This document shows positions 12,332-20,683 of a DNA stretch of 59,278 nt, piece by piece. Source of the stretch: SAR86 cluster bacterium (GTDB lineage: Bacteria; Pseudomonadota; Gammaproteobacteria; Magnimaribacterales; D2472); assembly GCA_018607365.1 (NCBI GenBank), contig JABBBT010000033.1, forward strand, positions 1 through 59,278. Reading direction: 5' to 3'. The notes under the pieces were generated by a model. The model saw only the letters and a list, made by a program, of their open reading frames with translations, had not been told where the DNA came from and ran no database searches. Position numbers and translations under genes: made by a program. Every line of letters begins with the position of its first letter. Within the stretch, counting starts at the first letter, position 1.

Positions 12332-13483
12332 ATGACATATTCAAAGAAAGATGAATCTATAAATAATCACTTTTTAAATGAATCCGATGCAATAGAAAGG
12401 ATTTTTAATCATATCGATAATGGAACCACCGATCTTGGTGATACAACTTGGAAAGAGCCGGTAAGTAATTATTATTCAAAAGATCGTTTTGATGCTGAAA
12501 TTTCTTTACTGAGAAGATCTCCTATTCCTTATTGTCCCTCAGCAGGGTTACCTGAAAATGGAAGCTATATAGCTAGAAGGGCATCAGGAACACCCTTGTT
12601 AGTGGTTAGAGGTGAGGATGGTATCGTTAGAGCCTTTATAAATGCATGCAAACATCGTGGTATGAAAGTTGCTGATGGAAGTGGGTGCAAAAAGAAAGCT
12701 TTTGTTTGTCCATATCATGCATGGGCTTATGGCTTAAATGGAAAGCTTAAAAACATTCCAGGCCAAGAGGCCTTTCCAGATTTAGATACCAATGATTTGG
12801 GGCTTACAGAAATAAGCGCAATTGAAAAGGGTGGAATTGTATATGTAATGCAGGAAGGAAAGATAGAAGATCATATGTTAGAAAACGCTATTGATTTTTT
12901 TGAACCTGAACAAAAAATGTTTAGTTATGGCGAGGTTGTCGATGAGGCTAACTGGAAACTATTAACAGAAACTCTTCTAGAGGGCTATCATATAAAATCT
13001 CTTCATAAAGATACTTTTTATCCTTTTGGCCTAGATAATATCAATCTTGTAGAGATATCTGGCTCCAACTCACGAGTTATTTTTCCTTTCAAAAGAATAG
13101 AAAAAATAAGGCATATAGATCCAAATGAAAGAAAATTAAATGGTGTTGCTACTTCAGTATTCCATCTATTTCCTAATGCAAGCGTTTCTATTTTATCAAA
13201 GCATTCAAGTCTAACAATCATGGAGCCCTTATCACCATCCAGTGTAAAAATAGTTAGTTATCTTATATACAATCCAAAATTAAATGGCAAAAATATATCC
13301 CTTGAAGAGGCAGAGAAGGATGCTCAGTTTGTTAATGAGTCAGGTCAAAATGAAGACAGAGAAGCTGCCAGAGCAATACAAGAAACAGTCACAACTTCAG
13401 CTAATACATATCTTACTTTTGGTTTTTTTGAAAAAGCAATTGTTAACTTTCATAAACATCTGACCCTAAGCCTTAATAAATAG
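12332..13483 (+). CDS. Rieske non-heme iron oxygenase alpha subunit
   Basis: Rieske motif NACKHRG...CPYHAW; mononuclear iron motif NWK...EGYHIKSLH...ED. Confidence 0.9.
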   Translation: MTYSKKDESINNHFLNESDAIERIFNHIDNGTTDLGDTTWKEPVSNYYSKDRFDAEISLLRRSPIPYCPSAGLPENGSYIARRASGTPLLVVRGEDGIVRAFINACKHRGMKVADGSGCKKKAFVCPYHAWAYGLNGKLKNIPGQEAFPDLDTNDLGLTEISAIEKGGIVYVMQEGKIEDHMLENAIDFFEPEQKMFSYGEVVDEANWKLLTETLLEGYHIKSLHKDTFYPFGLDNINLVEISGSNSRVIFPFKRIEKIRHIDPNERKLNGVATSVFHLFPNASVSILSKHSSLTIMEPLSPSSVKIVSYLIYNPKLNGKNISLEEAEKDAQFVNESGQNEDREAARAIQETVTTSANTYLTFGFFEKAIVNFHKHLTLSLNK

Positions 13484-13496
13484 AGTCACTGACAAG

Positions 13497-13524
13497 TTTA
13501 CAAACTATTATTTATATATATACT
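13497..13524 (+). promoter_or_regulatory. Putative sigma70 promoter of the arg leader/operon
   Basis: TTTACA (13497-13502), 16 nt, TATACT (13519-13524); predicted start at about 13531-13533. Confidence 0.55.
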
Positions 13525-13532
13525 GATTTGCA

Positions 13533-13577
13533 ATGATTAACACAAATACACGATTAAGACGGGTTCCCGCTTTATAG
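13533..13577 (+). CDS. Putative arginine attenuator leader peptide MINTNTRLRRVPAL
   Basis: ATG ATT AAC ACA AAT ACA CGA TTA AGA CGG GTT CCC GCT TTA TAG: three Arg codons within four codons, directly upstream of the arg operon. Confidence 0.8.
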   Translation: MINTNTRLRRVPAL

Positions 13578-13628
13578 CTGGGTCTTTTCTATTGTGAATT
13601 AGACCCAGCTTATGCTGGGTTTTTTTTT
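13556..13628 (+). promoter_or_regulatory. Transcription attenuator (protector, antiterminator and terminator hairpins)
   Basis: AGCTGGGTCT (13576-13585) is the exact reverse complement of AGACCCAGCT (13601-13610), which also forms the terminator stem; CCCGCT-ttat-AGC(t)GGG (13566-13582) is a candidate 1:2 hairpin. Confidence 0.85.
13601..13628 (+). terminator. Intrinsic terminator in the arg operon leader
   Basis: ACCCAGC-ttat-GCTGGGT followed by T8, ending 18 nt before the argF' ATG. Confidence 0.9.
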
Positions 13629-13646
13629 ATAAAAATAAAGGTAATT

Positions 13647-14648
13647 ATGAAAAATTTTATTTCTACGCAGGATTGGTCAAAATCAGATCTACAAGATATT
13701 TTAGATTATGCAAAAGAGCTAAAAGTAAATAAGTTTCAGGATAATTTAAAAAATAAATCTATTGCATTGATGTTTTTTAATCCATCTATGAGAACTAGGA
13801 CTAGCTTTGAGCTTGGCATCCAGCAATTAGGAGGACTTGCAGTAGTCCTTCATCCTGGAAAAGATGCTTGGCCAATTGAATTCAAATTAAATGAAGTCAT
13901 GGATACAGATTCAGAAGAACATATTATAGAAGTTGCAAAAGTGCTCTCTGAATATTGTGATTTAATAGCAATAAGGGCATTTCCTAAATTTATTAATCTT
14001 GAAGAAGATTTATCAGATAATGTTATTAAAAGTTTTGCAAAGTATGCAACTGTTCCAGTAGTTAATATGGAAACTATTACCCATCCTTGCCAAGAGCTTG
14101 CTCATATTTTAACTATGCAAGAACAGCTAGGCGATCTTTCTGGAAAAGATTACTTATTAACTTGGACATATCATCCAAAACCTTTAAATACTGCAGTAGC
14201 AAATTCATCCTTATTAATTGCAAGCAAGTTTGGTATGAACGTTAAGTTGCTTTGTCCCACAGAAGATTATTTACTTCATGATACATATATGCAGAATGCA
14301 GAAGAAAACTGTAATGCTAATGGCACCTCATTCTCAATAACTCATGACATCAAAGAAGGTTATAAAAATGCTGACGTTGTTTATGCTAAGAGCTGGGGTG
14401 CTCTTAGTTATTATGGAAATCCTGAGGATGAAAAGTTAATCAGAGATAGATATAAGCATTTTATTGTTAATGAAGAAAAAATGGCAATGACTAATAATGC
14501 TAAATTCAGTCACTGTCTTCCTCTAAGAAGAAACATCAAAGCAACAGATGGAGTTATGGATTCTGATTATTGTGTTGCCATACAAGAAGCAGGAAATAGA
14601 ATGCACGTTCAAAAATCACTACTATCAACTTTATTAAAGGATAAATAA
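13647..14648 (+). CDS. argF': N-acetylornithine carbamoyltransferase (AOTCase, Xanthomonas-type ArgF')
   Basis: FFNPSMRTRTSF (not STRT), SEEHIIEVAKVL, HPCQELAH, LTWTYHPKPLNTAVANS, HCLPLRRNIK. Confidence 0.9.
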   Translation: MKNFISTQDWSKSDLQDILDYAKELKVNKFQDNLKNKSIALMFFNPSMRTRTSFELGIQQLGGLAVVLHPGKDAWPIEFKLNEVMDTDSEEHIIEVAKVLSEYCDLIAIRAFPKFINLEEDLSDNVIKSFAKYATVPVVNMETITHPCQELAHILTMQEQLGDLSGKDYLLTWTYHPKPLNTAVANSSLLIASKFGMNVKLLCPTEDYLLHDTYMQNAEENCNANGTSFSITHDIKEGYKNADVVYAKSWGALSYYGNPEDEKLIRDRYKHFIVNEEKMAMTNNAKFSHCLPLRRNIKATDGVMDSDYCVAIQEAGNRMHVQKSLLSTLLKDK

Positions 14649-14651
14649 AAA

Positions 14652-15842
14652 ATGAAAAAAATTGTATTAGCTTTTTCAGGCGGATTAGACACAAGTTTCT
14701 GTGTTCCATACCTAATTGATAAAGGTTTTGAGGTTCATACTATATTTGTAAATACTGGGGGAACACCAAAGAAAGAGGAGGAAAAAATTACCAAAAGAGC
14801 AAATGAACTCGGAGCGAAAAAACATATTAATGTAAATGTTGATAATCTTTTATGGAATCAAATTATCAAGCCATTAGTTTGGTCTGGCGCTTTATATCAA
14901 GATAAATATCCAGCACTATGCTCGGATAGGTATCTTATAGTTTCAGAAGCAATAAAGCTCTGTAAAAAATTAAATACCAAATATATTTCTCATGGCTGCA
15001 CAGGAATGGGTAATGATCAGGTAAGGTTTGATCTCTCAATTCAAGCATTTGGCAAATACAAGACCATTACTCCTATAAGAGAAATACAAAATAAAGTTAA
15101 TGATGTAAGGGGGTATGAGCAGAAATATCTAGAAGATAAAGGTTTCAAGGTGTCATCTATACACTCGAAATATAGTATCAATGAAAACCTTATGGGGGCT
15201 ACTGTTTCTGGATCTGAAATAGACGAATGGAAAGAACCTTCCAAAGAAAGCTATATCCTTTGCAATACACCAGACAAATACCCCTCTAAATTAAAAAAGA
15301 TAGTAATAGAATTCTCAAAGGGTGAGGCTAAAAAAATTGATGGTGTTGCTATTAAAGGCCCAGAGCTATTAAGAATACTAAACAAGTTAGGTGGCAAGTA
15401 TGGCATTGGGAGAGAAATTTTTGCCAGCGACACGATTATAGGAATTAAGGGAAGATTTCTTTTTGAGTCTCCTGGTATAAATATACTTCAGTCTGCACAT
15501 AGAGCTTTAGAGGAATCTATTTTTACTGATAAACAAAACTTTTTTAAGCCTATTGTCGGTAAAAAATGGGTTGAATTAGTTTATGGTGGCTTTTATTTTG
15601 ACCCTTTAGCAAGAAATCTCGAAAATTTTTTACAAGATATTGAACTGCCTGTGAACGGCAAAGTAACAATGTTACTTTCACCAGGAAAGTCAGAAGCAGT
15701 AGCTGTTGAAGCTAAAAAAATACTAGTTAGTAAAGAAGCCATATATGCTCAGTCTGCCTCATGGGGTGTCGAAGAGTCAGCTGGTTTTATTAAATTACTT
15801 GGTCAAAGCACTGCAACTTGGACAGATATAAATAAAAAGTAA
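14652..15842 (+). CDS. argG: Argininosuccinate synthase
   Basis: LAFSGGLDTS, HGCTGMGNDQVRF, YSINENL. Confidence 0.96.
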   Translation: MKKIVLAFSGGLDTSFCVPYLIDKGFEVHTIFVNTGGTPKKEEEKITKRANELGAKKHINVNVDNLLWNQIIKPLVWSGALYQDKYPALCSDRYLIVSEAIKLCKKLNTKYISHGCTGMGNDQVRFDLSIQAFGKYKTITPIREIQNKVNDVRGYEQKYLEDKGFKVSSIHSKYSINENLMGATVSGSEIDEWKEPSKESYILCNTPDKYPSKLKKIVIEFSKGEAKKIDGVAIKGPELLRILNKLGGKYGIGREIFASDTIIGIKGRFLFESPGINILQSAHRALEESIFTDKQNFFKPIVGKKWVELVYGGFYFDPLARNLENFLQDIELPVNGKVTMLLSPGKSEAVAVEAKKILVSKEAIYAQSASWGVEESAGFIKLLGQSTATWTDINKK

Positions 15843-15843
15843 A

Positions 15844-17154
15844 ATGAACCAAAACTTTACTAAAGACACTATTTTAAAACTCCTCAGCGGGATGAGCAGT
15901 GAAAAAGAGATAAGAAAGTACTTAGATAGATTTTCTTCTGATGACTTTAGGTTTGCTGTAATTAAAGTTGGTGGAGCGGTAATAGAAAATGATTTAGAAA
16001 ATTTAATATCCTCTTTAGTATTTTTAAATGAAGTTGGCCTTAGACCAATTATTGTTCATGGAGGTGGTCCTAAGCTTTCAAGAGCACTAGAGGAAAAAAA
16101 AATACAGTTTTCATTTAAAGATGGCCAAAGAATTACTTCTAAAGAAGTACTAGATGAAGCTATTGATGTATTTAAGGCTGAAAATCAAAAAATTACATCT
16201 GCCTTGATTGAAAAGAATGTATCGGCTGTATCTTTGATTGATGATATTTTTAAGTGCATCATTCAAGATGAAGAATTGGGATTCGTTGGGTCTATTATTG
16301 AAACTAATTCAAATAAAATTAGGGATATTATTTCAAATGGAGGAGTTCCAGTAATAGCTCCAATGGGATATACAGATAAAAAACAAATAGTAAATATTAA
16401 TGGCGACAAGGCAACTCAGGCACTGGCAAAAGAAATATCTCCTGATAAAGTGATTTTTTTAAGTGAGATTGGGGGAATCCTTGATGGTTCAGATAACTTA
16501 ATCTCAACGATAAACATTAAAGATGATTATGAGAGATTAATGTCTGAAGGATGGCTCCACTCAGGAATGAAACTTAAGCTTAAAGAGATTAAGCTTCTCC
16601 TTGATCATCTTCCTTCTAACAGCTCGGTATCAATAACAAAACCTCTCTATTTAAATAGAGAACTTTTTACCGATGCTGGCTTTGGAACCTTGGTAAAGGC
16701 GGGCCATCACATAGATAAACTTAAAGAGTTAGATAATGTAAATAAAGACCACATTACCTCAATCCTAGAATCAGCATTTAAAGGAAAACTCGATAAAAAT
16801 TATTTTATTAATCAAGACAAAGAATATTATGTAAGTGGTTGTAGTAGAGCTTTGATAGCGATATCTCACTATCAAAAGATAGCTTATATGGATAAATTCG
16901 CAGTTAAAGCTGACGCTAGAGGAGAGGGGCTTGGTAATGCTATATGGAATAGGATGACAGCTGACCACAAAAAGGTTTTTTGGAGATCTAGACCAAATAA
17001 TTCAATAAACTTCTTTTATAAGAATGTTTGTGATGGCTTTCAAAAAACCAATGAATGGAATATCTTTTGGATTGGTATTAATAATCTAGATGAGCTTACC
17101 GAATGCATAAGAATGGCATCTAATCAACCTGAAACAATTGCATATGAAAAATAA
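15844..17154 (+). CDS. argB: Bifunctional-type N-acetylglutamate kinase/synthase (NAGS-K; kinase plus C-terminal NAT domain)
   Basis: FAVIKVGG, VHGGGP, NINGD, ELFTDAGFGTLV; C-terminal YMDKFAV...GEGLG...FWRSRPNNSINFFY. Confidence 0.9.
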   Translation: MNQNFTKDTILKLLSGMSSEKEIRKYLDRFSSDDFRFAVIKVGGAVIENDLENLISSLVFLNEVGLRPIIVHGGGPKLSRALEEKKIQFSFKDGQRITSKEVLDEAIDVFKAENQKITSALIEKNVSAVSLIDDIFKCIIQDEELGFVGSIIETNSNKIRDIISNGGVPVIAPMGYTDKKQIVNINGDKATQALAKEISPDKVIFLSEIGGILDGSDNLISTINIKDDYERLMSEGWLHSGMKLKLKEIKLLLDHLPSNSSVSITKPLYLNRELFTDAGFGTLVKAGHHIDKLKELDNVNKDHITSILESAFKGKLDKNYFINQDKEYYVSGCSRALIAISHYQKIAYMDKFAVKADARGEGLGNAIWNRMTADHKKVFWRSRPNNSINFFYKNVCDGFQKTNEWNIFWIGINNLDELTECIRMASNQPETIAYEK

Positions 17155-18085
17155 AATCAATATAGCGATGATTGGTGGTAGAGGTTTTGTAGGTCAGGAG
17201 ATAATTTCTATACTAAATGACCACCCAATATTTATGCTAAGTAAAGTTTTTTCTAAAACAGCTGCAGGTAAAGTAGTAGAGGGCTACAAGAAATCATCTA
17301 ATCTAAAGTACTGCCTTCTTGATATATCAAATTTGCAGTTAGAGGATATTGATATAGCAATCATGGCATTGGCTAATGATGAATCTGAATCCTATATAAA
17401 CATTATTAAAAAAGATTATCCAAATATAATATTTATTGATCTAAGCTCTGACCATAGATTAGATAAAACATGGGATTATAGGGTTCCCGAGCTTGCAACA
17501 AAAAAAGCAACTAAATTCATCAGTAATCCAGGATGCTATGCATCTGCAATACAATTTTCTTTGGCACCAATCAAAAATCTTATTTCTGGAAGAGTTAGTT
17601 CTATAGGCATCTCTGGTTATAGTGGAGCTGGAGCCTCACCAAATGACAAAAATAACCCTGTCAATCTTAAGAATAATATTATTCCATACTCTCTTACAAA
17701 TCATCTTCATGAGCAAGAGGTTTCAAAGCAATGCTATGAAGAAATATCTTTTAGCCCTCATGTCGGCAATTTTTTTAGAGGTATTCTTATAACATCTCAT
17801 ATACAACTTAAAACAAGTCAAACGAATCAAGAAATTTTAGGAACCTTTATTGATTTTTATCAAAACTCTAAATTAATCGAAGTTCTAGATGATATACCTA
17901 TGATTAATAAGGTTGCTAATACCCACAAGGTTTTAATAGGCGGAATATCTATTGATAATTCAGGAGTAAACTTAACAGTATGTTGCGCTCTTGATAACTT
18001 GCTTAAGGGAGCTGCTACACAAGTTATACAAAATCTTAATTCAGCATGTAGCCTAGATGAATTAATAGGAATAAATTATGAATAA
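17144..18085 (+). CDS. argC: N-acetyl-gamma-glutamyl-phosphate reductase
   Basis: GGRGFVG, DLSSDHR, ISNPGCYAS, SGYSGAG, DNLLKGAA; ATG 17144 preferred to TTG 17138. Confidence 0.95.
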   Translation: MKNKINIAMIGGRGFVGQEIISILNDHPIFMLSKVFSKTAAGKVVEGYKKSSNLKYCLLDISNLQLEDIDIAIMALANDESESYINIIKKDYPNIIFIDLSSDHRLDKTWDYRVPELATKKATKFISNPGCYASAIQFSLAPIKNLISGRVSSIGISGYSGAGASPNDKNNPVNLKNNIIPYSLTNHLHEQEVSKQCYEEISFSPHVGNFFRGILITSHIQLKTSQTNQEILGTFIDFYQNSKLIEVLDDIPMINKVANTHKVLIGGISIDNSGVNLTVCCALDNLLKGAATQVIQNLNSACSLDELIGINYE

Positions 18086-19361
18086 AAAACTATGGAATAA
18101 CAAAACAAGTAATATATCTGAGGAAATTACGTCTTTTTTAGCTGGTGAAGATATTGAGTTGGACAAATTTATATTCATTTATGATGTCGATGCATCTCTA
18201 GCCCATGTCAAAGCTCTGCAGTCTATAGGGATAATAAAAAAAAATGAGCTAACAAAGCTTAGTAAAGCTCTTAAAGTTCTAAGAACGAAGTTTATTAACG
18301 GCACATTTAAGTTAACTAATAAATATGAGGATTGTCACTCAGCCATTGAGTTCTATTTGACTAAAGAGCTTGGCGATCTTGGTAAAAAAGTTCATACAGG
18401 TAGAAGTAGAAATGATCAGGTAATGGTGGCAATGAGATTATTTGCTAAAAAAAATCTTATTGAATTTAAAATAAAGAATAAATTAATTGCTGAAACTTTT
18501 TTAAACTTAGCAAAGAAACACAAAGATTTACCAATGCCAGGATATACTCATCTTCAAAGAGCCATGCCTTCTTCATGGGGCTTGTGGTTTTCTTCATATG
18601 CTGAATCCTTCATTGATAATGTAGATCTAATTAACAATACTATTGATTGGGTTGATTCAAACCCATTGGGAAGTGCGGCTGGTTATGGAGTTGCAATACC
18701 ATTAAATAGAGACTTAGTAACCAAGGAGTTAGGTTTTAGTAGAACTCAGTTAAATAGTTTGTATGTCCAGAATAGCAGAGGTAAGTATGAGATGCAGATA
18801 CTTAATACCTTGAAGCAATCAATGTTAGATATAAGAAAATTTTCATGGGATATGAGTTTATTTTTATCACAAGAATTTGATCTATTATCTATTGATAGTA
18901 AGTATTCAACAGGATCGTCAATTATGCCTAACAAACACAACCCAGATGTCATAGAGATATTAAGAGCAAATTATTCAATTTTAGCTGGCTTTTCATCGGA
19001 ACTGGAAAATTTACTCTCTCTTCCTAGTGGTTATCATAGAGACCTTCAATTAACTAAAAGAAGTCTAATAAATGGTTTTCACACTTCACTTAAATCATTA
19101 GATATTATCCCAGCTTTACTAAAGACAATTAAGATAAACAAAACTAACTCCAACAAATATATAGATAATGAAATGAAAATGACTGACAAAGTTTACTCGC
19201 TTGTTTCTGATGGAGTTCCTTTTAGAGATGCATACAGTCTAGTAAAAAATTCTGATGACCATTCTTTATTACCTGAAAGAAAATCTTTAAATCACTCTAT
19301 GGGATCGCCAGGAAATTTGAATCTCAATTTGTTAGAGAAGAGACTAAAAAAGCAAAAATAA
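18078..19361 (+). CDS. argH: Argininosuccinate lyase
   Basis: HTGRSRNDQ, MPGYTHLQRA, STGSSIMPNKHNPD. Confidence 0.96.
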   Translation: MNKKLWNNKTSNISEEITSFLAGEDIELDKFIFIYDVDASLAHVKALQSIGIIKKNELTKLSKALKVLRTKFINGTFKLTNKYEDCHSAIEFYLTKELGDLGKKVHTGRSRNDQVMVAMRLFAKKNLIEFKIKNKLIAETFLNLAKKHKDLPMPGYTHLQRAMPSSWGLWFSSYAESFIDNVDLINNTIDWVDSNPLGSAAGYGVAIPLNRDLVTKELGFSRTQLNSLYVQNSRGKYEMQILNTLKQSMLDIRKFSWDMSLFLSQEFDLLSIDSKYSTGSSIMPNKHNPDVIEILRANYSILAGFSSELENLLSLPSGYHRDLQLTKRSLINGFHTSLKSLDIIPALLKTIKINKTNSNKYIDNEMKMTDKVYSLVSDGVPFRDAYSLVKNSDDHSLLPERKSLNHSMGSPGNLNLNLLEKRLKKQK

Positions 19362-19408: not shown

Positions 19409-20683
19409 ATGCAAATACCTGTTAGATTCAGAGTTATTTTTATGTCATTCTTGGCTGTTTTTATTTGCTACATAGATAGAGTGAATATTTCAGTTGCCAT
19501 TATCCCAATGCAAGAACAGTTTGGCTGGAGTGAGTCTCAGGTAGGCATTATTTTTTCTTCTTTTTATCTAGGTTATATTTTTACTATGACTATTGGTGGA
19601 TTTTTAGCTGATAGATATGGTGGCAAAATAGTGCTTGGGTATGGCCTTCTTCTTTGGTCATTATTTACAGTTTTAACTCCAGCATTTGCATATAATGGAT
19701 TTTTTGCAATCTTAACAATAAGAGTCTTAATGGGTCTAGGTGAGGGCATAACCTTTCCTTCTTGGCATGCCTTATATGCTAGATGGATTCCTTTTGAAGA
19801 GAGAACAAGATCAATTGCAATTACAAATAGTGGTATTTCTGTTGGGACTGTTTTTGGATATCTTGTAACAAGTTTAATAATTGCTAGCTATTCATGGGAG
19901 TGGGTCTTTTACTCTTTTGGAATGTTGGGAGTAATTTGGTTCTTTTTTTGGCAGCAAAACGTTACATCATACCCAAGTGACCATAAAGATATATCCTCCA
20001 AAGAGCTTGATTTTATAATTAGAAAGGCACCTGCAAACTCTTCAGCCCCAAAAATTTCTATATTAAAAGTAATAACAAATCTTCCTTTTCTGGCGATAAC
20101 AGTAGCTACCTTTTGTCATAATTGGGCATTATTTATCTTTCTTTCTTATTTACCAAAATTTATTAATAGCCCTGAATCATTAGGAGGATTAGGAATAGCT
20201 TTAGATTCTAGTGTTTTTATCTTTTTAATTTTAATTCCAAGTTTTTTTTCAGTAGTCTCCCTTATTGCTGGAGGTTTTTTAGCAGACAACCTTATAAAGA
20301 AAAAATATCAAGTCATTAAGGTGCGCAAAGTTCTTAACTCTATCGGTTTCTTTGGATCTGCCTGTTGTTTATTTTTAATACCATTTCAAGATTCACACCT
20401 TTTTATAATTTCTCTTTTATGTGCAACAAATATTTGTACTGGAATTGCTGCTGGAGGTTTTGGAGTCAATCATGCTGATTTAGGTCCAAGATATACAGGG
20501 ACATTGGTTGGTATCTCTGGAAGTCTAGGCATGATCGCAGCAGTGATTGGTCCATTAGCTGCAGGCTTCATACTTGATATAACTAATTCTTGGGAATTAA
20601 TATTTCATATATGCTCATACATGTTGTTGTTTGGTGGTATTTTCTATCTGATTTTTGCAAGTACTGATAAGCAATTCGAATAA
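19409..20683 (+). CDS. MFS transporter, anion:cation symporter (SLC17/sialin-like) family
   Basis: ICYIDRVNISVAIIPM, GGFLADRYGGK, RVLMGLGEGITFP; about 12 TM helices. Confidence 0.88.
   Translation: MQIPVRFRVIFMSFLAVFICYIDRVNISVAIIPMQEQFGWSESQVGIIFSSFYLGYIFTMTIGGFLADRYGGKIVLGYGLLLWSLFTVLTPAFAYNGFFAILTIRVLMGLGEGITFPSWHALYARWIPFEERTRSIAITNSGISVGTVFGYLVTSLIIASYSWEWVFYSFGMLGVIWFFFWQQNVTSYPSDHKDISSKELDFIIRKAPANSSAPKISILKVITNLPFLAITVATFCHNWALFIFLSYLPKFINSPESLGGLGIALDSSVFIFLILIPSFFSVVSLIAGGFLADNLIKKKYQVIKVRKVLNSIGFFGSACCLFLIPFQDSHLFIISLLCATNICTGIAAGGFGVNHADLGPRYTGTLVGISGSLGMIAAVIGPLAAGFILDITNSWELIFHICSYMLLFGGIFYLIFASTDKQFE

What the first reader, a model, noticed from the sequence alone, without database searches (positions are those of the whole stretch)
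13497..13646. Arginine-sensing leader-peptide attenuator ahead of the arginine biosynthesis operon
Seen: a 14-codon ORF missing from the ORF track (13533-13577, MINTNTRLRRVPAL) with three different Arg codons clustered (CGA, AGA, CGG at 13551-13562). Segment 2 AGCTGGGTCT (13576-13585) overlaps the leader TAG and is perfectly complementary to segment 3 AGACCCAGCT (13601-13610). Segment 3 alternatively pairs with GCTGGGT (13614-13620) before T8, a terminator ending 18 nt before argF'. A weaker 1:2 hairpin CCCGCT/AGC(t)GGG is also present. Established: this is the trpL/hisL/thrL architecture, whereas proteobacterial arg genes are classically repressed by ArgR at ARG boxes. Inference: a ribosome at the stop codon masks segment 2 and allows termination; one stalled on the Arg codons 13-25 nt upstream frees it and allows readthrough. 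I know of no characterised Arg-codon transcription attenuator for a bacterial arg biosynthesis operon, but could not check the literature.
Basis: partly seen in the sequence, partly recalled or inferred. Interest (0 to 1): 0.92.

Follow-up and report, generated by a model that had tools for sequence, protein, structure and literature searches.

The report
Arginine-codon attenuator before arginine operon
A tiny translated leader containing a very rare arginine codon, followed by switchable RNA hairpins and a terminator, most likely turns the arginine-synthesis operon on only when arginine runs short, a control mode not described for arginine genes and shared with Xanthomonas relatives.

Summary
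The attenuator reading is strongly supported by comparison, but no experiment tests it.

- **Anatomy:** promoter (13497-13524), RNA 5' end at 13532 (one metatranscriptome contig), ATG at 13533, a 14-codon ORF with CGA, AGA and CGG.
- **Structures:** a covarying stem sequesters segment 2. Segment 2:3 is an antiterminator. Segment 3:4 plus T9 is a terminator, 18 nt before argF'GBCH.
- **Conservation in the family:** 57 distinct homologous leaders all keep an in-frame CGG. CGG is 0.7% of this genome's Arg codons. In a closed relative it can only be read by wobble, by tRNA-Arg(UCG).
- **ORF test:** frame 0 has no stops in 0 of 19 leaders, against 14 and 15 of 19 in the other frames.
- **ArgR:** not found in any of the 11 genomes searched.
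- **Distant relatives:** Arg-codon leaders with the same GCTGGG/CCCAGC/GCTGGG logic precede argF' in 75 of 80 loci. The Xanthomonas form is Rfam's "sRNA Xoo5", never read as an arginine leader in the papers I could search.
- **Rewiring:** in relatives where argG was not found, the leader precedes a TonB-dependent receptor.

Verdict: a real, new variant of leader-peptide attenuation.

The parts
13497..13502 (+). -35 hexamer TTTACA of the leader promoter
   Evidence: Consensus scan, 10 of 12 matches, 16-nt spacer. GTTTACAAA is kept in the argF'-linked relatives although their upstream genes differ.
13519..13524 (+). -10 hexamer TATACT
   Evidence: The start codon lies 7-10 nt behind it in the argF'-linked relatives read by eye.
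13532..13532 (+). RNA 5' end, 1 nt before the ATG (leaderless leader mRNA)
   Evidence: Metatranscriptome run X5: contig 13532-14005 with a 19-letter adaptor-like loose end directly before 13532 (tables 7 and 8). One contig in one run.
13533..13577 (+). Leader ORF, 14 codons plus TAG (MINTNTRLRRVPAL)
   Evidence: Frame 0 is open in 19 of 19 distinct relatives, while 14 and 15 of 19 have stops in the other frames.
13551..13553 (+). Arg codon CGA (codon 7); not conserved, CAA in most relatives
13557..13562 (+). Arg codons AGA CGG (codons 9-10). CGG is the invariant sensor codon.
   Evidence: In-frame CGG in 55 of 55 distinct leaders and 2 more. CGG is 70 of 9713 Arg codons in the genome.
13549..13563 (+). 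5' strand of the sequestering stem (segment 1), inside the ORF
   Evidence: Minimum-energy fold. Pairs 13549-54 with 13591-96 show compensatory changes.
13566..13582 (+). Inner hairpin CCCGCT/AGC(t)GGG that ties up the start of segment 2
   Evidence: 81% of cells paired in relatives, with one-sided changes only.
13576..13585 (+). Segment 2 AGCTGGGTCT, overlapping the TAG stop
   Evidence: Pairs with segment 3 in 85% of cells in 19 relatives. Forms the antiterminator in 55 of 55 stalled, truncated folds.
13584..13596 (+). 3' strand of the sequestering stem
13601..13610 (+). Segment 3 AGACCCAGCT (terminator 5' arm and antiterminator 3' arm)
13614..13628 (+). Segment 4 GCTGGGT(TT) and the T tract of the intrinsic terminator
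   Evidence: 9-bp stem, 4-nt loop, T9
13647..14648 (+). argF' (N-acetylornithine carbamoyltransferase), first regulated gene
   Evidence: NF003384, 540.2 bits, cut-off 288
14652..19361 (+). argG, argB (long form), argC and argH, tightly packed or overlapping behind argF'

Best explanation
This is a ribosome-mediated transcription attenuator that senses charged tRNA-Arg.

Transcription starts at 13532 and a 70S ribosome starts on the AUG one base later (leaderless).

With arginine plentiful, the ribosome runs to the TAG and covers segment 2 (13576-85). If the leader is not translated at all, segment 2 stays locked in the stem 13549-63/13584-96. In both cases segment 3 pairs with segment 4, and RNA polymerase terminates at the T tract (about 13625-13628), before argF'.

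With arginine scarce, the ribosome waits with the rare CGG (13560-62) in its A site, helped by AGA (13557-59) and here also CGA. It then melts segment 1 and the 5' arm of the inner hairpin but leaves segment 2 free. Segment 2 pairs with segment 3 before segment 4 is made, and polymerase reads into argF'GBCH.

Shown: the anatomy, its conservation, covariation of the stems, the RNA 5' end, read-through RNA, the rarity of CGG, and that ArgR was not found.

Inferred: translation of the ORF, stalling at CGG, and the response to arginine.
For: - **ORF under selection:** 0 of 19 distinct leaders have a stop in frame 0, against 14 and 15 of 19 in the other frames. Shuffles give a mean of 12.3 and a minimum of 5 in 2000. 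A 1-nt deletion in L006 is followed by a new in-frame TGA.
- **Codon-level conservation:** CGG is in frame in 55 of 55 distinct leaders and in L090 and L094. The three bases before it vary freely.
- **Rarity of CGG:** CGG is 0.7% of Arg codons, 0.25 per 1000 codons. The closed same-genus genome G017 has 33 tRNAs with Arg anticodons ACG, CCT, TCG and TCT, and no CCG.
- **Sequestering stem covaries:** 3 pairs have both-side changes in 19 sequences, and 92.6% of cells pair against at most 54% when the partner is slid. In the wider, model-fitted alignment 6 of 6 pairs have both-side changes, and 0 of 500 shuffles reach the score.
- **Switch logic by folding:** free RNA gives the terminator in 53 of 55. 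A ribosome at the stop gives it in 55 of 55. A stall at CGG before segment 4 exists gives the antiterminator in 55 of 55, at mean -12.9 against -13.5 kcal/mol for the terminator.
- **Independent lineages:** 75 of 80 distant argF' loci have Arg-motif leaders: Xanthomonadales ..SRARRPEPHIFAG*, Kangiella ..RRRSR... Genus g9 has 38-42-codon uORFs, five ending ..RRRRSI* or ..RRRRRSI* and two ..RRSRSI*/..RRLRSI*, in 7 of 22 loci.
- **Triple covariation:** the segment 2/3/4 position is T/A/T in 55, C/G/C in 8, and unparsed in 11.
- **RNA evidence:** 5' end at 13532, and the same contig reaches 14005. The Xanthomonas homologue is a 124-nt RNA by 5' RACE and Northern blot (PMC3039613, passages read), and it starts 2 nt before its uORF ATG.
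- **ArgR not found:** own genome, 5 relatives, and 4 Stenotrophomonas plus 1 Kangiella. The positive controls rang.
Against: - There are no data on the response to arginine, on ribosome occupancy, or on the 3' end at the terminator. The runs are contigs and cannot show ends.
- The number of Arg codons is small (1-3). Most receptor-linked leaders keep only CGG. Classical attenuators usually carry more (recalled).
- There is no Shine-Dalgarno sequence. Leaderless translation is thought to be inefficient in Gammaproteobacteria (recalled). 8 of 55 leaders have GTG at the start position (alignment).
- At equilibrium, with the full transcript and a stalled ribosome, the antiterminator is the best fold in only 14 of 55 (7 of 31 argF', 7 of 24 receptor-linked). 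The switch must therefore be kinetic.
- In free truncated RNA, segment 3 already pairs upstream in 30 of 55.
- Inside the window's own family, segment 2:3 shows no compensatory change: 0 pairs, and 49 of 500 shuffles reach the observed values for cells paired and for the covariation score. Segment 3 is invariant there.
- The 8 C/G/C loci may descend from few events. One locus (L225) has a mismatching C/A/T combination.
- Contig X1 13200-13563 bridges from the upstream gene into the leader. Read-through from upstream, or DNA in the library, cannot be excluded.
- Homology between the window's leader and Xoo5 is inferred from architecture only. RF02242 does not hit the window, and my model R1 hits only the terminator in distant loci.
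Confidence: 0.8

Rival explanations
1. It is a translation-coupled attenuator, but it reports general translation speed or the state of one tRNA (tRNA-Arg UCG: its abundance or wobble modification), not arginine supply as such.
For: Only the single codon CGG is universal. Codon 9 is Arg in the window's genus but Ile, Ser, Asn, Lys, Glu, Val or Leu elsewhere. The same leader precedes a TonB-dependent receptor with no evident arginine link. CGG depends on one wobble-reading tRNA.
Against: Four sequence-unrelated leader types upstream of argF' share nothing but Arg codons, often 3-5 of them, with various codons: AGA, CGT, CGC, CGA. The regulated genes are the arginine pathway. The receptor-linked copies occur in genomes where argG was not found (0 of 5). 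That fits arginine hunger as the signal.
Confidence: 0.08
2. It is a structured RNA bound by a protein or small ligand (riboswitch-like or antiterminator-protein site). The ORF is incidental.
For: CGGG and TAGCTGG are conserved at the nucleotide level with no synonymous change. There is no Shine-Dalgarno sequence. Conserved terminator stems can mark protein-controlled leaders.
Against: The open frame is kept in an AT-rich leader. The distance from ATG to CGG is fixed at 8 codons in 51 of 55 and 9 in 4. The stop codon always touches segment 2. The conserved triplet coincides exactly with a codon. Distant lineages share Arg codons but not the CGGG motif. No Rfam riboswitch or T-box family matched.
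Confidence: 0.05
3. It is mainly a trans-acting small RNA gene (as Rfam files Xoo5). Its position before argF' is not regulatory.
For: The Xanthomonas homologue accumulates as a discrete RNA of about 100-130 nt (PMC3039613). Rfam types RF02242 as sRNA.
Against: The linkage to argF' is kept in 75 of 80 distant loci and 25 of 26 family loci. A contig from the same 5' end runs into argF'. The alternative pairing 2:3 is conserved, and a plain sRNA would not need it. A trans role of the terminated leader, in addition, is not excluded.
Confidence: 0.03
4. It is a nascent-peptide sensor of free arginine, like the fungal arginine attenuator peptide or SpeFL/TnaC. The peptide arrests the ribosome at the stop codon when arginine is bound, which holds segment 2 covered.
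For: The stop codon overlaps segment 2, so a ribosome held there would favour termination at high arginine, which is the right sign. Arg 10 lies 4 residues from the C-terminus in every family member.
Against: Apart from Arg 10 the peptide is not conserved. Known arrest peptides need many fixed residues (recalled). The distant leaders have other lengths and sequences.
Confidence: 0.03

Closest known systems
Leader-peptide attenuators of enterobacterial trp, his, leu, thr, phe and ilv operons (trpL, hisL etc.; textbook, recalled)
   Same: A short ORF with codons for the end-product amino acid; segments 1:2, 2:3 and 3:4; an intrinsic terminator before the first structural gene; the stop codon placed so that a terminating ribosome covers segment 2.
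   Different: The amino acid is arginine, for which I found no described leader in 10 literature searches. The mRNA is leaderless, with no Shine-Dalgarno sequence. The sensor can be a single very rare, wobble-read codon. No Rfam leader family matches.
Rfam RF02242 'Xoo5', Xanthomonadaceae sRNA (sRNA-Xoo5 of Liang et al. 2011, PMC3039613)
   Same: It lies directly upstream of argF' in Xanthomonas, Stenotrophomonas and Lysobacter (101, 91 and 53 bits). It has the same GCTGGG / CCCAGC / GCTGGG-T-run triple, a uORF starting 2 nt from the RNA 5' end, and Arg codons R-A-R-R.
   Different: The window does not score against RF02242. The uORF there is about 33 codons, and the stop lies after, not before, the GCTGGG core. 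The invariant Arg codon is CGA, not CGG. Rfam files it as an sRNA. The two papers I searched use neither 'arginine' nor 'leader' / 'leader peptide' (0 occurrences each). In them 'attenuat' occurs only in PMC3039613 (2 passages, neither on Xoo5).
Salmonella speF leader orf34 (Ben-Zvi et al. 2019, PMC6386406; abstract read)
   Same: Two consecutive Arg codons in an upstream ORF sense arginine through ribosome pausing and choose between alternative mRNA structures.
   Different: It controls ornithine decarboxylase, not arginine synthesis. The output is Rho termination, RBS access and RNase G decay, not an intrinsic terminator.
Leaderless polycysteine short ORFs of mycobacteria (bioRxiv 10.1101/834739; title and start of abstract seen)
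   Same: A leaderless short ORF acts as an amino-acid-responsive attenuator of the downstream operon.
   Different: The amino acid is cysteine, the organisms are Actinobacteria, and the ORFs carry runs of Cys codons. I did not read the mechanism in detail.
ArgR / ARG-box repression (classical arginine regulon; recalled)
   Same: Same physiological task: shut off arg genes when arginine is plentiful.
   Different: It is a DNA-binding repressor. Neither ArgR domain was found: PF01316 in the own genome and in 5 Stenotrophomonas/Kangiella genomes, and PF02863 in 5 relatives.

Membership tests
Ribosome-mediated leader-peptide transcription attenuator | Short ORF in the 5' leader of a biosynthetic operon | tested here: met
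   ORF 13533-13577. It is conserved and open in 19 of 19 distinct relatives and in 57 distinct leaders in all.
Ribosome-mediated leader-peptide transcription attenuator | Codons for the pathway's own amino acid at a fixed place in the ORF | tested here: met
   CGA, AGA and CGG in the window. CGG is in frame in 55 of 55. Arg runs are present in three other leader types before argF'.
Ribosome-mediated leader-peptide transcription attenuator | Intrinsic terminator between the leader ORF and the first gene | tested here: met
   9-bp stem plus T9 at 13601-13628. The stem core is invariant in 19 relatives. A compensated CCTAGC/GCTAGG variant occurs in L090 and L094.
Ribosome-mediated leader-peptide transcription attenuator | Antiterminator (2:3) mutually exclusive with the terminator | tested here: met
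   10-bp perfect pairing in the window. 85% of cells pair in relatives. It forms in 55 of 55 stalled, truncated folds. Triple covariation is T/A/T 55 against C/G/C 8 in distant relatives. There is no covariation inside the window's own family.
Ribosome-mediated leader-peptide transcription attenuator | Structure (1:2) that sequesters segment 2 when the ribosome is absent or released | tested here: met
   Stem 13549-63/13584-96 plus the inner hairpin. Compensatory changes are seen.
Ribosome-mediated leader-peptide transcription attenuator | The leader ORF is translated | tested here: inconclusive
   The frame and stop-codon pattern argue for it. The RNA 5' end 1 nt before the AUG fits leaderless initiation. 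There are no ribosome or peptide data.
Ribosome-mediated leader-peptide transcription attenuator | Read-through rises when the cognate amino acid or charged tRNA is scarce | not testable with these tools
   This needs reporter or Term-seq experiments.
Rfam RF02242 Xoo5 | Score at or above the gathering threshold (50 bits) | tested here: not met
   No Xoo5 match on window 13300-13800 even at E up to 10. It is met by L218, L181 and L179.
ArgR / ARG-box regulon | Genome encodes ArgR (PF01316 / PF02863) | tested here: not met
   0 of 1 in the own genome, which is 89% complete. 0 of 5 relatives, including two single-contig genomes. The controls rang in 9 and 8 of 14 genomes.
T-box leader (Arg-specific T-boxes of Firmicutes) | Match to the T-box covariance model | tested here: not met
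   The T-box family is not among the 31 weak matches.
Ligand-sensing arrest peptides (AAP, SpeFL, TnaC) | Extended conserved peptide sequence | tested here: not met
   Only Arg 10 is invariant among the family's peptides.

The most novel reading that the evidence does not exclude
The element is the marine, minimal form of an ancient, leaderless arginine attenuator that replaces ArgR across argF'-type Gammaproteobacteria, and Xanthomonas 'sRNA Xoo5' is its terminated leader. In the streamlined lineage the sensor has shrunk to one wobble-read hungry codon (CGG). In relatives that appear to be arginine auxotrophs, the same sensor has been re-wired onto a TonB-dependent receptor. That would mark the orphan receptor (with its neighbouring P450 and MFS genes) as an arginine-starvation-induced system for scavenging arginine or an arginine-containing compound.
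Probability: 0.35. Interest if true: 0.85.

Novelty: new variant of a known kind. Interest (0 to 1): 0.72.

Why it matters
- **A textbook gap.** Arginine is the classic case of repressor control (ArgR and the regulon concept). It is among the amino acids for which no leader-peptide attenuator is on record in the literature I could search. If this reading holds, a large ArgR-less block of Gammaproteobacteria controls arginine synthesis by attenuation. That block includes Xanthomonadales (with crop pathogens and Stenotrophomonas), Kangiella, and abundant streamlined aquatic lineages.
- **An orphan RNA explained.** It would give a function to the Rfam entry Xoo5.
- **Sensor design.** It offers a natural test of the idea that attenuators pick the most starvation-sensitive or slowest codon: CGG here, CGA in Xanthomonadales. 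It also shows a leaderless leader peptide in Gammaproteobacteria.
- **A lead on an unknown receptor.** It gives a handle on a TonB-dependent receptor of unknown substrate in uncultured marine bacteria that seem unable to make arginine.

Tried and rejected
- **Rfam on the window.** 31 weak matches, all far below gathering scores and all driven by the terminator hairpin. None was used.
- **Literature.** None returned an arginine leader-peptide attenuator of an arg operon. One search was largely wasted, because the prefix 'argl' matched ARGLU1 papers. The phrases 'arginine-dependent attenuation', 'arginine-mediated attenuation', 'arginine-responsive attenuator', 'arginine attenuation' and 'arg operon leader' had 0 occurrences in all 25 papers listed of the 69 that held a term. 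Subscription journals are not covered. Supplements were not opened, including Additional file 4 of PMC3039613, which holds the 5' RACE data.
- **Equilibrium folding of full-length leaders with a stalled ribosome.** The antiterminator is the best fold in only 14 of 55. I do not use this as support, and I report it as evidence against a purely thermodynamic switch.
- **RNA contigs.** X2 has no cover over 13453-13619 and X3 none over 13466-13721. Contigs cannot show ends or absence, so nothing is concluded from these holes. No termination site could be read.
- **Model R1 on distant loci.** Only the terminator part matches, so covariance-model-level homology to Xoo5-type leaders is not shown.
- **Genus g9 leader fold.** z = -2.15 and no clear terminator, so its mechanism is left open.
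- **Scan of the own genome for other amino-acid-run leaders plus terminators.** The scan was crude. The Arg leader was the only convincing case, and absence of others is not claimed.
- **Ortholog of the leader-linked receptor in the own genome.** Only plug-domain matches of 33-36% identity were found.
- **Strict perfect-stem terminator parser.** It missed most loci and was replaced.
- **Rows dropped.** L027 (contig cut, no upstream DNA). L064 (contains N). Identical leaders (L012, L014-L018 and others). L070 plus strand, L077, L078 and L079 (terminator only, no leader ORF). L139 (start of argF' mis-placed by my motif). L090 and L094 were missed by my regex and were examined separately.
Full report
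**1. Observation**

- ATG 13533 to TAG 13575-77 encodes MINTNTRLRRVPAL.
- The Arg codons are CGA (13551-53), AGA (13557-59) and CGG (13560-62).
- Segment 2, AGCTGGGTCT (13576-85), overlaps the stop codon. It is the perfect complement of segment 3, AGACCCAGCT (13601-10).
- Segment 3 also pairs with GCTGGGT (13614-20), which is followed by T8 up to 13628. That is 18 nt before the ATG of the next gene (13647).

The stretch folds far better than shuffles: -35.3 kcal/mol, z = -4.14, 0 of 200 shuffles as good. A consensus scan finds one promoter (TTTACA 13497-502, 16-nt spacer, TATACT 13519-24). It also finds the terminator 13601-13622.

The small CCCGCT/AGC(t)GGG hairpin sits inside a longer stem, in which ORF codons 6-11 (13549-63) pair with 13584-96. 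Segment 2 is therefore locked when no ribosome is present.

The genes behind the terminator are:
- argF' (N-acetylornithine carbamoyltransferase, 540 bits against a cut-off of 288);
- argG;
- a long argB;
- argC;
- argH.

**2. Setting**

The window lies in a 1.18-Mb draft genome with 34.1% G+C that is 89% complete. The tools give the organism no name. RNA runs that hold the stretch are aquatic, seawater, estuary and freshwater metatranscriptomes. The nearest named record is labelled only "Gammaproteobacteria bacterium".

ArgR was not found:
- PF01316 in the own genome;
- PF02863 in five relatives of at least 90% completeness, two of them single-contig.

The same searches rang in 9 and 8 of 14 control genomes.

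**3. Conservation in the family**

Among 60 relatives, 27 places hold a close argF'. One is cut by a contig end.
- 25 of the 26 others carry the same leader. It is a 14-codon ORF (15 in L006), with AGA CGG at codons 9-10, the stop codon on segment 2, the stems and the terminator.
- The 26th (L026, another genus) has a different leader (see section 7).

The 25 give 19 distinct sequences (alignment A1). The tests on them:
- **Frame test.** No stop in frame 0 in 0 of 19, against 14 and 15 of 19 in the other frames. Mononucleotide shuffles give a mean of 12.3 of 19 with a stop and never fewer than 5, in 2000 trials. These sequences are kin, so this is not a probability. In an AT-rich leader it is still a clear sign of an ORF under selection.
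- **Repair after an indel.** L006 has lost one base near the stop and has a new in-frame TGA three bases on.
- **Sequestering stem.** It shows compensatory changes, with C-G changed to U-A in 4 sequences and two further pairs. 92.6% of cells pair, against at most 54% when partners are slid.
- **Segment 2:3.** It pairs in 85% of cells but shows no compensatory change. Segment 3 is invariant within the family.

**4. Wider search and a surprise**

A covariance model of A1 (R1) matched 69 of 138 genomes of the family at E up to 0.001. A few of these matches are terminators only: no leader ORF in L077, L078 and L079.

After removing duplicates and one sequence with N, I had 55 distinct leaders. Two more (L090, L094) were missed by my pattern, because their terminator carries a compensated CCTAGC/GCTAGG change.
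- 31 distinct leaders precede argF'.
- 24, plus those two, precede a gene of about 790 codons for a TonB-dependent receptor (Plug PF07715 and barrel PF00593). These come from a genus the tool codes g5.

Five g5 genomes of at least 90% completeness with the receptor-linked leader gave no match to argG (0 of 5). Two of them (G027, G034) had no close argF' either. These bacteria probably cannot make arginine, although this is "not found with this query" and not proof.

In G027 the receptor is followed by a hypothetical gene, a P450 and an MFS transporter. That transporter is of the same family as the one that follows argH in the window. This suggests that the arg genes were replaced behind a retained leader.

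The own genome has no close ortholog of the receptor.

**5. What is invariant**

Across all 57 leaders the only coding feature that never changes is an in-frame CGG. It is codon 10 in 51 of the 55 leaders and codon 11 in 4.
- The codon before it is AGA in the window's genus. Elsewhere it is ATT, AGC, AAC, AAA, ATA, GAG, GTT, CTT or ACA.
- Some leaders have AGA after it instead.
- The conserved triplet coincides exactly with a codon.

CGG accounts for 70 of 9713 Arg codons (0.7%; 0.25 per 1000 codons) in 643 long ORFs of this genome, while AGA makes up 70%.

The closed genome of a same-genus relative (G017, 95% identical argF') has 33 tRNAs. Its Arg anticodons are ACG, CCT, TCG and TCT, with no CCG. 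CGG can therefore be read only by wobble, by tRNA-Arg(UCG). The own draft shows 26 tRNAs and lacks that one, which I attribute to incompleteness.

A rare, slowly read codon is what one would choose as a sensitive sensor. That leader peptides prefer such codons is recalled from the selective-charging literature and was not checked here.

**6. Switch logic**

I folded all 55 leaders with the part covered by a ribosome forced single-stranded.

| Condition | Result |
|---|---|
| No ribosome, full transcript | terminator in 53 of 55 |
| Ribosome with the stop codon in the A site | terminator in 55 of 55 |
| Ribosome with CGG in the A site, transcript ending before segment 4 | segment 2:3 in 55 of 55 |
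| Ribosome with CGG in the A site, full transcript at equilibrium | antiterminator best in only 14 of 55 |
| No ribosome, truncated transcript | segment 3 already pairs upstream in 30 of 55 |

- The third row is the moment of decision. The mean energy there is -12.9 kcal/mol, against -13.5 for the terminator hairpin.
- The last two rows show that the switch must be kinetic, as in the trp attenuator (recalled).

**7. Independent lineages**

*Genus g9 of the same family.* 7 of 22 argF' loci have a 38-42-codon uORF. Five of them end ..RRRRSI* or ..RRRRRSI* (AGA AGA CGT/CGA AGA). Two end ..RRSRSI* and ..RRLRSI*. The rest of the peptide varies.

*Distant relatives.* A scan of named genomes with argF' returned 80 distant loci (62-76% identity): Stenotrophomonas, Xanthomonas, Lysobacter, Pseudoxanthomonas, Rhodanobacteraceae, Kangiella, SAR92 and others.
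- 75 of the 80 have an Arg-motif uORF upstream.
- Xanthomonadales have ..GMTSRARRPEPHIFAG*. The codons are TCG CGY GCN CGY CGA, and the last Arg is always CGA.
- Kangiella has ..QQRRRSRI.PAG..
- In all of them GCTGGG lies in or at the end of the uORF, and CCCAGCC-loop-GGCTGGG-T-run follows. These are the same three segments as in the window.

*The five loci without the motif.*
- One (L154) has the window's own type of leader.
- One is g9-like.
- Three are SAR92/Porticoccaceae.

*Triple covariation.* The position that is T in segment 2, A in segment 3 and T in segment 4 in 55 loci is C, G and C in 8 loci. 11 loci were not parsed. By eye, those 11 split as follows:
- 4 are T/A/T;
- 6 are T/G/C, which still pairs through G-U;
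- 1 (L225, which also lacks a T tract) is C/A/T.

This is the covariation for 2:3 that the window's own family could not give. The 8 may descend from few events.

*ArgR in these genomes.* PF01316 was not found in four Stenotrophomonas genomes and one Kangiella genome with such leaders.

**8. The link to a known RNA**

Rfam RF02242, "Xanthomonadaceae sRNA Xoo5", matches exactly this leader in an uncultured Xanthomonas (101 bits), S. maltophilia (91 bits) and Lysobacter arvi (53 bits; gathering score 50).
- The model's first base lies 2 nt before the uORF's ATG.
- Liang et al. 2011 (PMC3039613; passages read) found sRNA-Xoo5 as a 124-nt RNA. They used 5' RACE, cloning and Northern blot (bands of about 130 and 100 nt).
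- Their text contains neither "arginine" nor "leader" (0 occurrences each). "Attenuat" occurs twice, in neither place about Xoo5.
- Schmidtke et al. 2012 (PMC3300014; one passage read) note only a transcription start for its homologue.

So a short terminated RNA starting at the uORF has been seen experimentally in a distant relative, without the arginine reading.

The window itself does not score against RF02242. R1 recognises only the terminator in the distant loci. Common descent is therefore an inference from shared architecture.

**9. RNA evidence for the window**

Four metatranscriptome runs from four studies were laid on 13200-14700. All are contigs, so they cannot show expression level or 3' ends.
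- **X5.** One contig covers 13532-14005 and carries a 19-letter loose end directly before 13532 (tables 7 and 8). I recognise those letters, from memory, as the tail of a template-switching cDNA adaptor. That marks an RNA 5' end. Base 13531 is C, so the adaptor's terminal Gs cannot hide further template.
- **What that implies.** The end lies 7 nt behind the -10 box and 1 nt before the ATG, so the leader mRNA is leaderless. The same contig runs through the terminator into argF'. RNA from this start can therefore read through.
- **Limits.** This is one contig in one run.
- **X1.** A contig bridges 13200-13563. Transcription from upstream, or DNA carry-over, is not excluded.

**10. Mechanism, and how sure**

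The best explanation, at about 0.8, is an arginine attenuator of the classical kind, with three peculiarities:
- a leaderless start;
- a sensor that can be one rare wobble-read codon;
- re-use before a receptor gene in likely auxotrophs.

Steps shown:
- the anatomy;
- conservation of the ORF, the codon and the stems;
- covariation;
- the RNA 5' end and read-through RNA;
- the codon's rarity and the tRNA set;
- that ArgR was not found.

Steps inferred:
- translation of the ORF;
- the stall;
- the response to arginine.

The rivals and their odds:
- a sensor of general translation or of one tRNA (0.08);
- a protein- or ligand-bound RNA (0.05);
- a purely trans-acting sRNA (0.03);
- an arginine-binding arrest peptide (0.03).

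Each is set out with its own test in the rival explanations.

**11. Novelty**

The kind is textbook. The instance is not on record in what I could search: 10 full-text searches, Rfam 15, and the two Xoo5 papers. Subscription journals and supplements were not covered.

The closest described cases are:
- the two Arg codons of Salmonella speF orf34 (PMC6386406, abstract), which control another pathway by other outputs;
- the leaderless polycysteine ORFs of mycobacteria (bioRxiv 10.1101/834739; title and start of abstract).

I file it as a new variant of a known kind.

Noticed in passing
L026:1345-1464 (genus g9); also L132, L137, L138, L140, L141, L143: A different, longer leader before argF'. 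It is a 38-42-codon uORF whose start lies about 9 nt behind a CATACT -10-like box. Five of the 7 uORFs end ..RRRRSI* or ..RRRRRSI* and two end ..RRSRSI*/..RRLRSI*. It is followed by a hairpin without a clear T tract (fold z = -2.15). The mechanism is unclear and may be translational.
   Followed up: partly
L134, L135, L142, L144-L147, L152 (genus g9), last 40 nt before argF': Here the gene upstream of argF' looks like panD (recalled from its C-terminal sequence, not tested). It runs on into a tail ..IPTQR[LI]RS[LV]* that resembles the end of the g9 leader peptide. It looks as if the leader ORF had been fused to the preceding gene.
   Followed up: no
L057 (G109:C2), behind the leader at about 1500-1600: A leader identical to that of L010 is followed directly by the interior of an MFS transporter gene, with no arg genes. 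This may be a deletion of the whole arg operon or an assembly or binning artefact (the genome is 59% complete).
   Followed up: no
window 19409-20683 and L098:2739-4013: The MFS transporter after argH in the window and the one after receptor-hypothetical-P450 in G027 hit the same families with near-identical scores (TIGR00894, 262 and 263 bits). This suggests that the leader and the transporter flank a replaceable cassette.
   Followed up: partly
G000:C45:644-707 (L077); also G014:C3:142045-142127, G013:C20:9074-9157, G017:C1:410258-410347: The same CCCAGC/GCTGGG stem occurs elsewhere as a two-way terminator without any leader ORF. Model R1 hits it on both strands at 35-39 bits.
   Followed up: partly
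G017 (closed same-genus genome), tRNA loci L100-L131: The genome has only 33 tRNA genes. There are four tRNA-Arg (ACG, CCT, TCG, TCT) and no CCG anticodon.
   Followed up: yes
L181:329-450 (Stenotrophomonas maltophilia T2-6): The long uORF is out of frame with the MTSRARRPEPHILAG part in this strain, whereas other Stenotrophomonas have one continuous 33-codon ORF. This is either a real frameshift or a sequencing error.
   Followed up: no
window 13619-13628: Metatranscriptome contigs of X1 and X5 carry one or two extra T in the terminator's T tract. The length varies between strains.
   Followed up: no
window 12332-13483: The gene upstream of the leader is a Rieske-type oxygenase with only weak likeness to the glycine-betaine monooxygenase GbcA (98.8 bits, cut-off 670). 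In several relatives a tRNA gene or other genes lie there instead, so it is not part of the unit.
   Followed up: no
L154-L233, codons of the S-R-A-R-R motif: In the Xanthomonadales loci that carry this motif (about 70 of the 80) the last Arg codon is CGA and is followed by CCG (CTG in L208, CGC in L225). As recalled, CGA is read through inosine wobble and is slow. This parallels the CGG of the window's family.
   Followed up: partly
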